A stretch of DNA of 64,000 nt from Bythopirellula sp. (GTDB lineage Bacteria > Planctomycetota > Planctomycetia > Pirellulales > Lacipirellulaceae). A program made the position numbers. Positions 48,501 through 54,500 of this stretch are shown in pieces; within the stretch, counting starts at the first letter, position 1; the number at the start of each line of letters is the position of its first letter. Where the stretch lies: NCBI GenBank assembly GCA_965216565.1, contig OZ244170.1, positions 2,944,001-3,008,000 of the forward strand, given 5' to 3'.

Positions 48501-51500
48501 ACGTGGTATTCACTGGTCGTGCCGTCACGGCGAGCCGTGTAGCCCCAATAGTGCTCGGCAATGAATTCTTCTTCGCTACCGGCAACCAGGGGCTGAGCTT
48601 CCCCCGTGGTTTCCGCCCTGAGACGCTGCCAGCTTCCGGCGGACTTCCACTCGTATTCGACGCGGCCCGGCACCCCGGGTTCTTCTGGACGGGGCGTGAT
48701 CGCGTACCGCATTGGGGCGTAACAGAACTTCTCGTCATAAAACGTACGCGCCACAAACGCTACCATCCGCCGCGGCACGAGCTCTTTCACAAACACCACC
48801 CCCCGCCGCCAACCATCCTGCTCGTGGTGATAGCGCACGTAAAAACGCAAATTGAGCTCGGCGAAATGTCGGTAGAATGGAAATCCGATGCCCAACACGC
48901 GCGTATCGTGATACAGAAACCCCACCATGCTGGCCATTGTGCGACCTGCAAACGTATCCAACTCCGTCCCCGCCGGGACATACGGCAGGAGGATCGCTGG
49001 ATCCATTTCGTAGTTAAGCATCGCCAGATGCGACCAGCGTGATGTGAGAAACGACTTGCCTGCCATATTTCATCTCGGTTACATATTGTTCCGCCAGACC
49101 AACCGCAGCAGTGGCTGGATTGTAACCGAATCGAGAGAGCTTCAGCCATGCGACTCGTGCAGTCGCGGCTGTACCAAGCATTCACGTCGATCCGCGCTAG
49201 TCGCGGGCAGCATCTTCCTGCAATTGACGTCGCACCTGGGCGTAATGCGCGGCGGCGCGGACGATTTCCAGATTCTGAAAATCGTATTGCTGACGGGTGC
49301 TACGCATCAGTGCGATCCGATCGTCCTTGAGTTGCCGCAGCCGGGACTCAGCCGCGCGGAGCGAAAGCAGATGACTCTCCGCCGCAGTGCGAACGGGAGA
49401 GTACTCGCCCACGCGTAGGAAGGGTCGGTAGTCGCGAAGTCGGCGGTGCAGGATCGCGATTTCCGTCTCAGCCAGTCGAACTTGCTCGTCCAATCTTCGC
49501 CGCGTATTGGGAAGCACTACGTGCTGGTAGTTCCGAACCCGCGCCTGTGCCGCTTTGTAGGCGATATGGGCCTCGACCAATTCGGGAGTAATAACAACGC
49601 GGCCTTGAACAGGCTCCGCAGTCGGCTCAGCCGTTTGTTCCTTGGCATTGGCACCAGCAGTGCTGACAAAGGTGAGCAAGAGCAGAAGACTAGGGACAGC
49701 AATAAAAATTCGCATGAGATACCAACTCCGGAAGAGAGAAGAAAAGCTGTGCGGCTAACTTCCAGAGTAATTGGGCTGCCCGAGGAATTCCAATCTGGGC
49801 TCGCTATGTCGCGTTTTCGCCACATGCAACGCGAGCAATCGTTACAACGCGTAGACGAAGATCGATGGTTAATCACGGATGGACGCGAATGAGCTGGAAT
49901 CAGTAGGGTCCCGTCGCTGACGCTCCGGGCTGGCCCGATGCCCCTTGCCCCTTGCCCCTTGCCCCTTGCCCCTTGCTCCTTGCTCCTTGCTCCTTGCTCC
50001 GCTACAGCACGATAAGATTATTACGGTGCACGACTTCCTTGTAGGGGCAATGGCCCAGTAGTTCCGCGATGCGTTCGGTGGGTTGGCCGGCAATCGTTTG
50101 CATTTCCTTGGCAGTGTAATTAGTTAATCCTCGCGCTAACTCATTCCCGCTAGAATCGCAAAGCGAAACCACGTCGCCTTTGGAAAAATCGCCCTCCGTG
50201 GAGGTCACCCCAATCGCCAACAAACTACGCCCCCCGTTTTCGATGGCAGAGACGGCCCCCTGATCGAGAACCAACTTCCCCGCTGCGTTTGCGCTCCAGC
50301 CAATCCAGCGTTTACGGGAATCGATCGACTTGCCTTCAGCAATGATCAGTGTGCCGACGTCTTCGCCTGCCAGGATACGGTCGAGAATATCATCGCAACG
50401 TCCATTGGCGATCACTACGTTTTCGCCCGCAGCGGTGGCAATACGTGCCGCCTGCAGTTTGCTTTTCATTCCACCCAGGCTGAGTTGCACAGACCCTTGG
50501 TGATTTCCATCGTACACGGCATGTTCGCCGGAGGCATCGACATCAGTTACAACCGGGATGACTTTCGAATTGGGGTCAGCAGGATCGCCTTCGTAGAGGC
50601 CGTCAATGTCCGAGAGCAACACCAGCAACGGGGCGCGAATCAGATTCGTCACCTGCGCGGCCAGACGATCGTTGTCTCCAAAGCTGGTTTGGAATTCTTC
50701 GACGCTGACAGTGTCGTTCTCATTGATGATCGGCACGGCGTCGCATTGAAACAATGCAAGCAACGTGTTCCGCACATTGAGATAGCGTCGACGATCTTGC
50801 AAATCTTCCGCGGTGAGCAGGACTTGAGCCGCGTGAAGTTGATGTGGCTCCAGCGCCTGGTTGTACGATTCAATCAACAGGCTTTGCCCAATGGCGGCGG
50901 TGGCCTGCAACTGAGCCATATCGGTCGGGCGCTGTTTGATCTCCAGACGACCTAAGCCCGCGCCCACAGCCCCACTGCTGACTAGTACCACGCGCCGTCC
51001 CGCCTGCCACAGCCGCGCGAGCTGTGCCGAAATGGCAGCGACTCGCTGGCCGTCGAGCGTACCATCACTGGCAGTCAGCACGCGTGTGCCCACCTTAACG
51101 ACCACCAGGTCGGCTTCAGACATGATTTCTTGACGAACGAGTTCGGGCATTTGATTTAGGGATGCGGATTTCGGATTGCGGATAGGAGTTTTTGGCTATG
51201 ATTTGCCCCGTCTGTCCCTACTTCTCCCGCGTAGGTAACCAAACCTCCAGCCTACCCCCTCCTGCCTTCAGCCTCTAGCCAGGAAATACTGTACATATGC
51301 TCTTGCGAACATGTACGGACGTATATTATGATGGCCACAGCACTTGCAGCGAGCTACGTCCCGCGCCCATGAAGTCCCGCACTCGTGAATCTCCCTCCTG
51401 CATTTCGCTGCTTACCCGTGACTCACCTACGCAAGGCCGACCCATGAGCATCGACCAACTGACCCGGCGCCAAAAAGATGTGTTTCTCTTTATCCGGGAG

Positions 51501-54500
51501 AAAATTGAGAATCGGGGCTACGGCCCGACGGTCCGCGAAATTGGCGAAGAGTTTGAAATCAGTTCACCCAATGGCGTGATGTGCCATCTCAAGGCGCTCG
51601 AGAAAAAAGGCCTCATCACCCGCGAACCCAACATGTCGCGGGCCATTCAGCTTACCGAGGCTGCCTGCGAAGATCGTGGCATGCCGCTGGTGGGTCAGAT
51701 CGCTGCCGGCAGTTTAAGTGAAGCCATCGAACAAGCCGAACGTTTTGAATTTGAAGATTGGTTCGGCCAGAAAAACCTGTTCGCCCTCAAGGTGAAAGGC
51801 GACTCCATGATCGAGGCCGCCATTGCCGACGGCGACCTGGTAATTTGCCGCAAGGCCCGCACCGCCGACCGCGGCGACATTGTGGTAGCACTCACCGACG
51901 ACGGTGAGGCAACACTTAAATATTGGTACCCCGAAGCCAACCGCGTCCGTCTCCAACCGGCCAACTCAGAGATGAAACCCATCTACAGCCGCAACGTGAA
52001 AGTCTTGGGCGTTTGCACCGGCGTGGTGCGGAAAGTGTAGCGATGAGAGTCGGTGCCCGCGAATAACGCTAATCTTCGTGGATGTTGGTTAGCTGTTACT
52101 CTCAGGGATTTCGATAGCTTTTCTCAGCTACGTAGTTAGTTGTCTTTCCGAGGTCCGCCGAGGAATCTAGCCAGCCCCCTCGGGTCTACTTCGTTAGACG
52201 ACTAGCTGGGGCGAGGTGACAGATAGCTTCACGTCTGTGAATCGTTATCCGATTCTCCGGACAGCATCACATAGTCTGCTCACCTGAATGCAACACAACC
52301 AAGTATTGCGATCGCTCTTAGTGCGATTCGGTTCCATTCCATCGCACCCTACACTTCACAACACGATTTCGTTCTATTTGCCCAATTCGTGGTAAACCTA
52401 AGCCGACTGTTCCAAATTCGTCGCTTGGTTCAGCTTGTTGTAGAGCGTCTTGAGGCTAATGCCCAATTGCTCGGCGGCCTGTGGTTTGTTGCCATCGTTG
52501 CGCTCGAGTGCTTCGTGGATGGCTTCCATTTCCAAATCGCGGAGCGAGATGGCACCCCGCCGTTGCTTTGCGGCCCCTTGCAGTTGCCGGCTATCGAAGT
52601 GCTTCGGTAAATGTTCGTGCCGAATCGGTCCGCTGTCGCAGAGAATGGTCGCGTGCTCGATTACGTTGGCCAATTCCCGGACATTTCCTGGCCAGATGTG
52701 GCCCAAAAGGGCCTCCACCGCGTCGGGGGCAAACTCCGCTTCGCTACCGCGTCGATGACGAGAAAGCAAATACCTAGCCAGATCGGGAACATCTTGAATA
52801 CGTTCCCGCAGTGCCGGCAGGTTGATTTCGAATGTGTTGATGCGATACATCAAGTCTTCTCGGAATTCCTCCTCGGAGACCATCGTTGGCAGGTCGCGAT
52901 GCGTCGCGCAAATTACCCGTACGTCGACAGTGGTTGACTTGTTTTCGCCAACGCGGCGAATCTCGCCGCTTTCCAGCACTCGCAGCAGTTTCGCCTGCAT
53001 TGCTTTGGGAAGCTCACCGATTTCATCCAAGAAAATCGTCCCACCGTGGGCGACTTCGAACAGACCAACCCGATGCTCGTCGGCTCCCGTGAACGCACCC
53101 TTCTTATGTCCAAACAATTCGCTTTCGATCAGCGTTTCGGGCAGCGCTCCACAATTGACCGCCACAAAAGGATTTTCTGCACGGGCGCTCTGCTCGTGGA
53201 GAGACCGTGCGACCAGTTCCTTACCGGTACCAGTTTCGCCCAAAATCAACACGGTAGAATTGGTGGGAGCCACCTTCTCGATCAACAGTCGCACCTTCTG
53301 CATTGCCGGCGTCTTGCCAACAAGTTGCGGTGAACCTTCCAATCGCTGCACACGGTGCGTTAGCGCGCGGCACTTCTGCTCCAATTGACGTTTCTCGGCC
53401 ACGCGCTGCAAGAGCGCCTGGATCTCGATTAGTTTGCAAGGCTTAGTAAGGTAATCAAATGCGCCATGACGTAGCGCAGCAATAGCCGTGTCCATCGAGC
53501 TCTTGCCGGTCAGCACCACGGCTTCCGTTTCCGGCGCGTGCTCCTTGCAGTGCGCAATCACGCCGATGCCATCTTTGCCAGGCATGTCCAAGTCGACAAT
53601 GATGCAGTCGTACGTATTTTTCTCGAGTGCCGCGACGGCTGTCAGTCCGTCTGGGCAGACCGTCACCTTATGACCCAACCGCGGCAGTTCGAGCTTCATA
53701 AGCTCCTGCAGCGACTGTTCGTCGTCGGCAAACAACAAAGTCAATCCTTGACCTTTAGGCTGCTTGGTAGTGATGATGACTCTCCTTCGTTGAAAATTCG
53801 GTTGGCAAAGTCACGACAAACCGCGATCCCTTGCCCACGCCTGCACTGGTGGCTTCGATGTTTCCTTGATGCTCTTCCACAATTCTGTAGGTAATCGACA
53901 GACCCAAGCCGGTTCCCTGCCCGCTACGTCGTCGTGTGAAGAATGGCTCGAACAAATGTTTGAGTACTTCCTCATTCATCCCGCAACCATTGTCTTCGAC
54001 AACTAGTTGTGCTCGTTGGTTATTCTTCTCAATCGAGACGCTCACCTTACCGCCGGAGTCCACGCTCTCCAGACCGTTGGTGATAAGATTCAGCATCACT
54101 TGCTTGATTTCCTGCGCGTTCACCTGCACGATCGCTGGGTCGCCGGACTTAAGCTCGATTTGCTTGTCTTGGTATTTGCCGAGGTGCTGCACCATATCGA
54201 TCACACCATCGACCAGTTCTCGCAAGTCGGTGCTATGTCGCTGGGAATCGCCCATACGGGCAAAGTCGAGCAGTTTTTCGGTGATTTGTTTGCAGCGAAA
54301 CGCCTCGCGTTGGATCATTTGCAGGTAGTCGTGGGCCACTTTCACATCTTCGGCGTGATCGTCTTCGACTTGCTCTAGAAGCTCGGTCAACCGGCTCTCC
54401 AACGACTCGCTGCACAAAGCGATCGAAGCCAGTGGATTGTTAATCTCGTGGGAAACCCCAGCCGCCAAAAAGCCCACGCTGGCCAATTGTTCGCTACGAA

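What a model noticed while it worked through the whole genome (the two positions that open the first line are those of the whole stretch)
51280..52040. Planctomycete LexA box TGTAC-N4-GTATA and its SOS regulon
The LexA operator of this lineage is the palindrome TGTAC-N4-GTACA (often GTATA/GAATA in the right half), present in tandem over the lexA (g02447) and recA (g01825, 2253162/2253177) promoters. It defines an SOS regulon that includes imuB/dinB-like g00944, the PA0069/SplB-like radical SAM g00699, the DEAD/HRQ helicase operon g03558, a metallopeptidase g00854 and an HTH gene g02941; it was not found before uvrA/uvrB/uvrD.
Evidence so far: Upstream regions of 28 lexA and 30 recA loci of Lacipirellulaceae show the site by eye. 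A matrix built without this genome's own sites ranks intergenic sites just upstream of g00854, recA, lexA, g00699, g02941, g00944 among its top 10 hits in 5.2 Mb; with a symmetric matrix the top 14 hits are all intergenic. Held-out test: score >=13 in 11 of 19 upstream regions of g00854 orthologues versus 0 of 24 dnaK upstream regions and about 1% of this genome's upstream regions.
(Added by a program. Inside this text positions count along the whole contig: contig position 2,944,001 is position 1 of the stretch shown here. "Call 12" and the like, gene names such as g00115 and contig names such as C1 are that model's own, and its searches are not shown. The text may have been shortened before it was handed on; [...] marks where a part breaks off. 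The agent that wrote the report below was given it as the finding of a first reader that could run no searches.)

Follow-up and report, generated by a model that had tools for sequence, protein, structure and literature searches.

The report
Planctomycete SOS box and regulon
A short palindrome on the promoters of lexA, recA and other DNA-repair genes is very probably the binding site of the DNA-damage repressor LexA in planctomycete bacteria, and it also marks a protease-like/repressor gene pair linked to a long-resident phage-like gene cluster.

Summary
TGTACGGACGTATA (51312-51325) lies between the -35 and -10 of an intact lexA. A matrix learned de novo from 60 lexA promoters of other Planctomycetia families finds the box before family lexA (29/30), recA (25/30), dinB (17/21), an MrfA/HRQ helicase (55/61), PA0069 (13/24), an IrrE-like protein (27/30) and an XRE gene (25/30). 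Background is 4% of promoters. The box tracks a class-wide LexA helix (60/60 versus 0/20), is missing in one lexA-less genome, and persists where the XRE gene is absent. Refined consensus: TA-V-TRTACR-NN-YGTAYA-B-TA.

Corrections: the contig offset is 32 kb wrong. The gene is DinB, not ImuB. The second lexA site is weak. The 'metallopeptidase' has HExxE, not HExxH.

New: nrdJ, Y1-transposase-like genes, ssb and recQ carry boxes. The IrrE-like and XRE genes co-occur (37 both, 22 neither, 2 discordant), and XRE often borders a conserved GTA-like phage cluster.

I found no planctomycete LexA motif in print, but Erill 2016 and 2007 were not read. There are no binding data. The scan's notes show no earlier record of this motif.

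The parts
51444..52040 (+). lexA, 198 aa; recognition helix SPNGVMCHLKAL (residues 41-52), Ala88-Gly89 cleavage site, Ser121 and Lys159 catalytic pair
   Evidence: TIGR00498 202 bits; residue-level alignment to solved LexA chains; motif positions
51312..51325 (.). Main LexA box TGTAC-GGAC-GTATA (extended 20-bp site 51309-51328), in the promoter spacer
   Evidence: rank 6 in 5.2 Mb with the independent matrix; best site of the window, 18.6 bits against 11.7 for the next; 29 of 30 family lexA promoters at 12 bits or more
51290..51303 (.). Weak upstream site TGTAC-ATAT-GCTCT: good left half, degenerate right half touching the -35
   Evidence: 6.6 bits; left half kept in 20 of 27 family and 9 of 42 class lexA promoters
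51303..51308 (+). Predicted -35 hexamer TTGCGA (TTGAC in most relatives)
   Evidence: 9 of 12 matches; 0.8 expected per shuffle, so weak alone; family consensus Ttgac 6-7 nt before the box
51327..51332 (+). Predicted -10 hexamer TATGAT, overlapping the right flank of the box
50002..51150 (-). Divergent 382-aa gene (looks like glutamate 5-kinase ProB; label recalled, not tested). Not part of the regulon as far as tested

Best explanation
The palindrome is the operator of the Planctomycetia LexA repressor. A LexA dimer binds TA-V-TRTACR-NN-YGTAYA-B-TA, one half-site per subunit, and blocks sigma-70-type promoters. The box sits in the -35/-10 spacer at lexA, on both sides of the -10 at recA, and over the -10 and start site at dinB, the helicase operon and the IrrE-like gene. 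DNA damage makes RecA filaments trigger Ala88-Gly89 self-cleavage and frees a small regulon. Conserved members: lexA, recA, dinB, PA0069-type radical SAM, mrfAB-like helicase/exonuclease operon, IrrE-like gene, XRE gene, nrdJ. Partly conserved: Y1-transposase-like genes and a small HTH gene. Seen in this genome only: second dinB, ssb, recQ, two DUF5131/TcmP pairs. uvrABD are outside it. Shown: motif, conservation, promoter geometry, intact LexA, co-distribution with the LexA helix. Inferred from established SOS biology: binding, repression, induction.
For: Matrix A was learned by palindromic EM, without a seed pattern, from 60 lexA promoters of other families. At 9 bits or more, upstream versus equal-length downstream control: IrrE-like 27/30 vs 0/30, XRE 25/30 vs 0/30; dinB 17/21 vs 0/21, PA0069 13/24 vs 0/22, Y1-like 13/30 vs 0/30; HRQ 55/61 vs 1/60, after dropping 15 truncated loci of 76; nrdJ 5/5 vs 0/5. 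Family recA 25/30 against 4.1% of 4412 own-genome upstream regions and 2.5% of 600 shuffles. Separate de novo runs on the IrrE-like and on the XRE promoters return the same palindrome. Top 8 genome hits are all intergenic; column-permuted matrices give mean 2.0, maximum 5 in 60. ssb, recQ and the second dinB, whose orthologues were not used in training, rank in the top 28 of the refined scan. Helix SPN[GA][VA] in 60/60 class LexAs and 0/20 from other classes, where 2/20 promoters reach 9 bits; class LexAs form one branch, SH-aLRT 97 in a quick tree. The complete genome G314 has no LexA DNA-binding domain and no box at recA (3.2) or dinB (1.4), while three same-family LexA-bearing genomes score 15.5-19.3 at dinB. 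The box lies at 6-7, 12, 21-22 and 27-28 nt from the -35, as a repressor site would.
Against: No binding or expression data. Family f77 has the same helix, yet only 1 of 10 lexA promoters reaches 9 bits (0 of 10 at 8 bits when held out), and 3 of its 8 recA promoters reach 9. Class-level recA scores only 18/30. Palindromic EM on recA promoters alone, on dinB alone and on Y1-like alone missed the motif, and two W=16 runs locked one base off register. The lexA-less control is one genome, and with matrix A its recA (7.7) is inside the range of relatives (6.7-11.7). The fifth genome of that test, G208, has no box before its one weak IMS match. Genomes are kin, so counts are not independent. The flanking TA partly reflects overlapping -10 elements. 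The refined matrix is circular for genes whose orthologues trained it.
Confidence: 0.9

Rival explanations
1. The box is bound by the XRE protein and released by the IrrE-like protein, as DdrO and IrrE act on the RDRM in Deinococcus; LexA is merely one target.
For: Both genes carry the box, co-occur in 37 of 61 genomes with 2 discordant, are unlinked, and the larger protein has the IrrE/PprI fold. The IrrE/DdrO model is in PMC6300522, section 36.
Against: G208, G221 and G225 lack both genes but keep boxes at PA0069 (15.7-17.0 bits); G208 and G225 also at lexA, and G225 at dinB. The box is missing in the lexA-less genome G314. It tracks the LexA helix across the class.
Confidence: 0.04
2. The motif is part of a promoter class, or the site of a damage-responsive activator (PafBC- or DriD-like WYL protein), not a repressor operator.
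For: At dinB, HRQ and the IrrE-like gene the left flank coincides with a TATAGT/TATACT -10. SOS-independent activators bind recA promoters elsewhere (passages of PMC7617703).
Against: The distance to the -35 varies from 6 to 28 nt, the site is palindromic, and the two recA sites carry their better half on opposite sides. It covers start sites and even the dinB start codon. It is lost with lexA in G314.
Confidence: 0.04
3. An AT-rich pattern picked by eye that ranks intergenic DNA in a GC-rich genome by composition alone.
For: The single match in the window is not above chance. A loose exact pattern is no commoner than its reversed control in five genomes.
Against: De novo recovery in independent gene sets; permuted-matrix, shuffle and downstream controls.
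Confidence: 0.01

Closest known systems
Cyanobacterial LexA box RGTACNNNDGTWCB / AGTACWNWTGTACT (passages of PMC3091678)
   Same: 14-bp palindrome, 4-nt spacer, inner GTAC-N4-GTAC
   Different: Outer base is T...A rather than A...T; 0 of 253 sites match AGTWC-N4-GTWCT (the sites were chosen by matrix A, which learned T at 0.92)
Verrucomicrobia LexA box TGTTC-N4-GAACA (Erill et al. 2016; motif recalled, paper not held)
   Same: PVC superphylum, 14 bp, TGT.C-N4-G.ACA; tandem sites at lexA (recalled)
   Different: Fourth base is A (0.91); TGTTC is 16 of 506 half-sites and 1 of 253 sites is TGTTC-N4-GAACA
E. coli SOS box CTG(TA)5CAG (PMC3091678 passage)
   Same: Same register; TGTA core; TA flanks; helix begins SPN and ends HLKAL in the solved chains I recall as E. 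coli LexA
   Different: Outer C not required (G 216, A 142, C 139, T 9 of 506); position 5 is C, not T; helix AAEE replaced by GVMC; 0 of 253 sites match CTGT-N8-ACAG. PMC3108266 states that planctomycete LexA does not recognise the E. coli motif
Bacillus subtilis box CGAAC-N4-GTTCG (PMC3091678 passage)
   Same: AC-N4-GT core; TGAAC is a common half-site variant (42 of 506)
   Different: 3 of 253 sites match GAAC-N4-GTTC
IrrE(PprI)/DdrO of Deinococcus (PMC6300522 section 36); CapP/CapH and ImmA/ImmR (roles recalled)
   Same: Three-domain IrrE fold (TM 0.67-0.69; CapP 0.57) and an unlinked, co-occurring XRE partner
   Different: HExxE instead of HExxH in 30 of 30; both genes under a LexA-type box; XRE gene borders a phage-derived cluster; the PrpR domain, which lacks the HExxH in the alignment, matches equally well
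Gene transfer agents tied to SOS control (abstract of PMC6473078; listings)
   Same: Mostly single-copy, highly conserved head (and, in relatives, tail) cluster, often beside the same host genes
   Different: Terminase nearest to transposable-type phages at 35-38%; no particle or DNA transfer shown; this genome has no detectable tail genes

Membership tests
Canonical LexA repressor | Full-length match to the LexA family with N-terminal winged HTH and C-terminal S24 peptidase | tested here: met
   TIGR00498 202 bits over residues 5-198; PDB LexA E 1e-41
Canonical LexA repressor | Ala-Gly cleavage site and Ser-Lys dyad | tested here: met
   A88-G89, S121, K159
Canonical LexA repressor | RecA-stimulated self-cleavage | not testable with these tools
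   needs biochemistry
LexA operator (SOS box) | Dyad motif on the promoters of lexA and recA | tested here: met
   29/30 and 25/30 in the family; class lexA leave-group-out 19/20, 7/12, 6/9, 8/9, but 0/10 in f77
LexA operator (SOS box) | Overlaps promoter elements at variable positions | tested here: met
   promoters are predicted, not mapped
LexA operator (SOS box) | Marks translesion and repair genes | tested here: met
   dinB, PA0069, MrfA/HRQ, ssb, recQ
LexA operator (SOS box) | Lost where lexA is lost | tested here: inconclusive
   true in the one complete lexA-less genome found, G314; n = 1
LexA operator (SOS box) | Bound by LexA in vitro; genes damage-inducible | not testable with these tools
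   no experimental data
Published LexA motif classes (E. coli, Bacillus, cyanobacteria, Verrucomicrobia) | Sites match the published consensus | tested here: not met
   0, 3, 0 and 1 of 253 sites respectively; the Verrucomicrobia consensus is recalled
ImuB / imuABC mutasome | Catalytically dead Y-family subunit with dnaE2 | tested here: not met
   catalytic motifs intact, best matches DNA polymerase IV, one dnaE in the genome
IrrE/ImmA (M78) metalloprotease | Peptidase_M78 domain and IrrE three-domain fold | tested here: met
   PF06114 34 bits; TM 0.67-0.69 to IrrE/PprI, model pLDDT 94.5
IrrE/ImmA (M78) metalloprotease | HExxH zinc motif | tested here: not met
   HExxE in 30 of 30 homologues; H85, E86, E89, E112 invariant in 27 aligned
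IrrE/ImmA (M78) metalloprotease | Cleaves a cognate XRE repressor | not testable with these tools
   only co-occurrence, 37/1/1/22
Gene transfer agent | Conserved, vertically kept head-tail cluster | tested here: inconclusive
   capsid gene in 46 of 61 genomes, mostly one copy, 56-75% identity in most; same host neighbours in 5 of 20 loci; tail genes in three relatives examined but none found in this genome; integrase and replication genes not searched
Gene transfer agent | Particles package and transfer random host DNA | not testable with these tools
   needs culture work

The most novel reading that the evidence does not exclude
In Pirellulales the SOS response has a second tier: LexA represses an IrrE-like protein with a variant HExxE metal site and its XRE partner. 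After damage the IrrE-like protein inactivates the XRE repressor and switches on a domesticated, transposable-phage-derived head-tail cluster, an undescribed gene transfer agent of planctomycetes. The operator itself would be a link between the cyanobacterial/Gram-positive (GTAC-N4-GTAC) and E. coli (TGTA-N6-TACA) boxes.
Probability: 0.3. Interest if true: 0.8.

Novelty: new variant of a known kind. Interest (0 to 1): 0.6.

Why it matters
Planctomycete LexA is stated in print not to use the E. coli box (PMC3108266), and I found no motif given for it. A 20-bp consensus with a ranked target list makes the SOS response of a large bacterial class testable with one gel-shift and one RNA-seq experiment. 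The motif shares its core with the cyanobacterial box and its register and helix start with the E. coli one, which bears on how LexA specificity changes. The regulon also exposes an unlinked IrrE-like/XRE pair and a conserved GTA-like cluster that I did not find described. New LexA motifs are a familiar kind of result (17 reported by 2021, PMC8565304), so the motif alone is useful rather than startling.

Tried and rejected
Erill 2016 was not held by DOI or PMC id, and Erill 2007 was not looked up; either may mention planctomycetes. RegPrecise and CollecTF could not be consulted.

Palindromic EM failed on recA-only, dinB-only and Y1-only promoter sets, and W=16 family matrices B and C locked one base off register; both were discarded. 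The held-out f78 run also converged off register, so its 6/9 is weak. An exact degenerate pattern does not separate genomes from the reversed control.

A direct box at the head of the phage-like cluster is not general: hits of 11 bits or more in or near the cluster in 5 of 20 loci (G216, G338, G221 towards the head; G022, G329 inside). No XRE operator motif emerged from 15 cluster-upstream windows. The HRQ query found nothing in five f2 genomes, so it could not serve in the lexA-loss test.

I recalled that E. coli Glu45 specifies the outer C, which would fit its replacement by Cys here; two papers checked do not say so, so it stays an unverified recollection. The complex prediction for the IrrE-like and XRE proteins was not available, so binding was not modelled. 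Sequencing runs: no RNA holder listed. Flagellar, aminotransferase, glnE and similar mid-rank hits of matrix A were not followed up and may be chance. The careful LexA tree did not finish; the quick tree was used.
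Full report
1. The locus. Window 51444-52040 encodes a 198-aa LexA (TIGR00498, 202 bits) with A88-G89, S121 and K159 in place. TGTACGGACGTATA lies at 51312-51325 between a predicted -35 (51303) and -10 (51327). Neither match is beyond chance alone.

2. Removing the by-eye seed. I fetched lexA loci from 30 family genomes (the best 30 of 57 with a match), 60 loci from other Planctomycetia families and 20 from other classes (hand-picked). EM without a seed gave GTACG-NN-CGTATATTA on 29 family promoters and T..AC-N4-GT..A separately in the rest of the order, in the small families and in f78. 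Matrix A was learned from the 60 non-family promoters only, so it contains nothing from this genome, this family or any other gene. It scores 29 of 30 family lexA promoters at 12 bits or more and 25 of 30 family recA promoters at 9 or more, against 4.1% of 4412 upstream regions of my own gene calls and 2.5% of 600 shuffles. Its top 8 genome hits are intergenic; 60 column-permuted matrices average 2.0 and never exceed 5. Of its top 14, 10 are intergenic.

3. The regulon. Upstream versus downstream control at 9 bits: IrrE-like gene 27/30 vs 0/30; XRE gene 25/30 vs 0/30; class recA 18/30; dinB 17/21 vs 0/21; PA0069 family 13/24 vs 0/22; Y1-transposase-like 13/30 vs 0/30; MrfA/HRQ helicase 55/61 vs 1/60 (15 of 76 loci dropped as truncated); nrdJ 5/5 vs 0/5; a small HTH gene 11/29 within 600 nt vs 1/29 (1 dropped). 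Each set of 30 is the best 30 matches of its search and most include this genome. Labels come; the helicase operon also holds an RNase_H_2 exonuclease, as in mrfAB (name recalled). A refined 20-bp matrix from 253 sites of relatives puts 15 of the top 15 and 26 of the top 30 hits between genes (permuted mean 3.9 and 8.3). Hits whose orthologues did not train it include the second dinB, ssb, recQ, two DUF5131/TcmP pairs, a DinB-fold protein, yifB/comM, a thioredoxin and csrA; their conservation was not tested. uvrA (three loci), uvrB, uvrD (three) and dnaE have no box in this genome. The genome has one dnaE and both Y-family genes keep SIDE, so 'imuB' is wrong.

4. The motif. Consensus TA-V-TRTACR-NN-YGTAYA-B-TA; half-sites TGTAC 143, TATAC 112, TAAAC 56, TGAAC 42 of 506. 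The perfect TGTAC-N4-GTACA occurs in 9 of 253 sites. Deviations often coincide with an overlapping -10. The box starts 6-7 nt after the -35 at lexA, 12 and 27 at recA, 21-22 at XRE and 28 at the helicase. recA has two sites 15 bp apart in 23 of 30 family genomes; at lexA the upstream site keeps only its left half (20 of 27).

5. Who binds it. The helix SPN[GA][VA]xxHL is in 60 of 60 Planctomycetia LexAs and 0 of 20 from other classes, where 2 of 20 promoters reach 9 bits; the class LexAs form one branch (SH-aLRT 97, quick tree). Leave-group-out gives 19/20, 7/12, 6/9 and 8/9, but 0/10 for family f77, which keeps the helix and only a conserved half-site at lexA. That is the main result against a uniform picture. 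G314, a one-contig genome rated 99% complete, has no LexA DNA-binding domain and no box at recA or dinB (3.2 and 1.4 bits), while G225, G252 and G291 score 15.5-19.3 at dinB; G208's weak IMS match has none. With matrix A the G314 recA score (7.7) does not stand apart. Five recA loci from four other-class genomes score 7.1 or less with matrix A; one reaches 10.0 with the refined matrix. G208, G221 and G225 lack the XRE and IrrE-like genes but keep boxes, which argues against the XRE protein as binder.

6. The pair and the phage-like cluster. The first folds (pLDDT 94.5) like full-length IrrE/PprI (TM 0.67-0.69), PrpR (0.62) and CapP (0.57), but has HExxE in 30 of 30 homologues, so it may be a variant protease or a non-cutting sensor. 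It sits beside the same radical-SAM/TRAM gene in 16 of 30 loci. The XRE gene faces the end of a cluster with terminase, portal, maturation protease, decoration and capsid genes (G000:3603393-3617500). The capsid gene is found in 46 of 61 genomes, in 35 of 38 with XRE and 11 of 23 without, and lies within 11 kb of XRE, convergent, in 17 of 38 (counted by hand; many assemblies are fragmented). Three relatives examined have tail-region genes there; none of 9 such queries hit this genome. The terminase is nearest to transposable-type phages at 35-38%. The cluster head usually has no box and no XRE operator was found. That LexA controls the cluster through the pair is therefore a hypothesis.

7. 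What is known. Five full-text searches returned no planctomycete LexA motif, and two no planctomycete GTA-like cluster; one search returned only unrelated papers. Seen: passages of PMC8565304 (no 'planctomycet' in the main text or in the one supplementary archive; tail of Table S2 read); passages of PMC3108266, which says planctomycete LexA does not recognise the E. coli motif, citing Erill 2007; passages of PMC7739468, PMC13148647, PMC3091678, PMC7947584 and PMC7617703; passages and section 36 of PMC6300522; abstract of PMC6473078; term searches without hits in PMC5999292 and PMC7440846. Erill 2016 was not held; its motif is recalled, and its text or supplements could bear on novelty. The sites match the published consensus of E. 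coli, Bacillus and cyanobacteria in 0, 3 and 0 of 253 cases, and the recalled Verrucomicrobia one in 1. The scan's notes hold no earlier record of this motif.

8. Verdict. The element works like, and very probably is, a LexA operator (0.9), of a variant closest to the cyanobacterial and Verrucomicrobia boxes. Novelty: new variant of a known kind. Interest 0.6: the motif is solid and directly testable, and the nested IrrE-like/XRE pair with its GTA-like cluster adds a less certain but more surprising lead.

Noticed in passing
G000:C1:3603393-3617500 (L258): Phage head cluster (terminase, portal, protease, capsid) conserved in 46 of 61 genomes of the order; no tail genes found in this genome, present in three relatives examined. 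GTA-like; not found described.
   Followed up: partly
G000:C1:1038337-1039071 and 3602867-3603400: Unlinked IrrE-fold protein (HExxE) and XRE regulator with near-identical presence and absence across 61 genomes.
   Followed up: partly
L201, L205, L206, L208, L209, L212, L216 (upstream of XRE): In 13 of 25 boxed XRE promoters a reverse -35-like hexamer follows the box, so one site may cover back-to-back promoters; a conserved unnamed protein of about 100 aa is divergent in at least 7 and was not found in this genome.
   Followed up: partly
G000:C1:4397186-4397674, 3075386-3075868, 197092-197550: Three Y1/IS200-like (RAYT-like) genes; two carry top-ranked boxes, the third none; 13 of 30 family loci are boxed.
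   Followed up: partly
G000:C1:1138493-1138512: The dinB box overlaps the start codon in about half of family orthologues, a few bases after the -10, which suggests a leaderless mRNA.
   Followed up: no
G000:C1:3642661 (L143): nrdJ has the box in its leader in this genome and in 5 of 5 relatives; two NrdR-box-like sequences (motif recalled) lie further upstream.
   Followed up: partly
G000:C1:58521-58540 (L528): Second-ranked site, a near-perfect palindrome, lies after a parB-like gene and about 155 nt before a tRNA-Pro followed by a GIY-YIG-like frame; target unclear.
   Followed up: partly
G000:C1:3117252-3117994; G216:C1:493743: A 94-aa HTH protein found in 37 of 61 genomes is boxed in 11 of 29; in G216 it heads the phage-like cluster behind a perfect box. 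Candidate activator.
   Followed up: partly
G314: One-contig Pirellulales genome with recA and dinB but no LexA found; a widely spaced inverted repeat (GTGAACA...TGTTCAC) lies before recA.
   Followed up: partly
G115, G132, G273, G293, G296, G304: One genus of family f3 has two lexA copies; the second has a slightly changed helix (SPNGVMGH/SPNGVVGH) and a weak box.
   Followed up: no
L138 (G109): An other-class lexA with a different helix has TGAAC-ATGT-GTTCA, a Gram-positive-like box, just upstream.
   Followed up: no
scan note e1-1449601 (another planctomycete genome): That note rejected a CTGT-N8-ATAG near-palindrome as a LexA box; the shape resembles the upstream recA site here and may merit rescoring with this matrix.
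   Followed up: no
G000:C1:4205786-4211644: One 2465-aa frame holds two UvrA-length matches, besides two ordinary uvrA genes.
   Followed up: no
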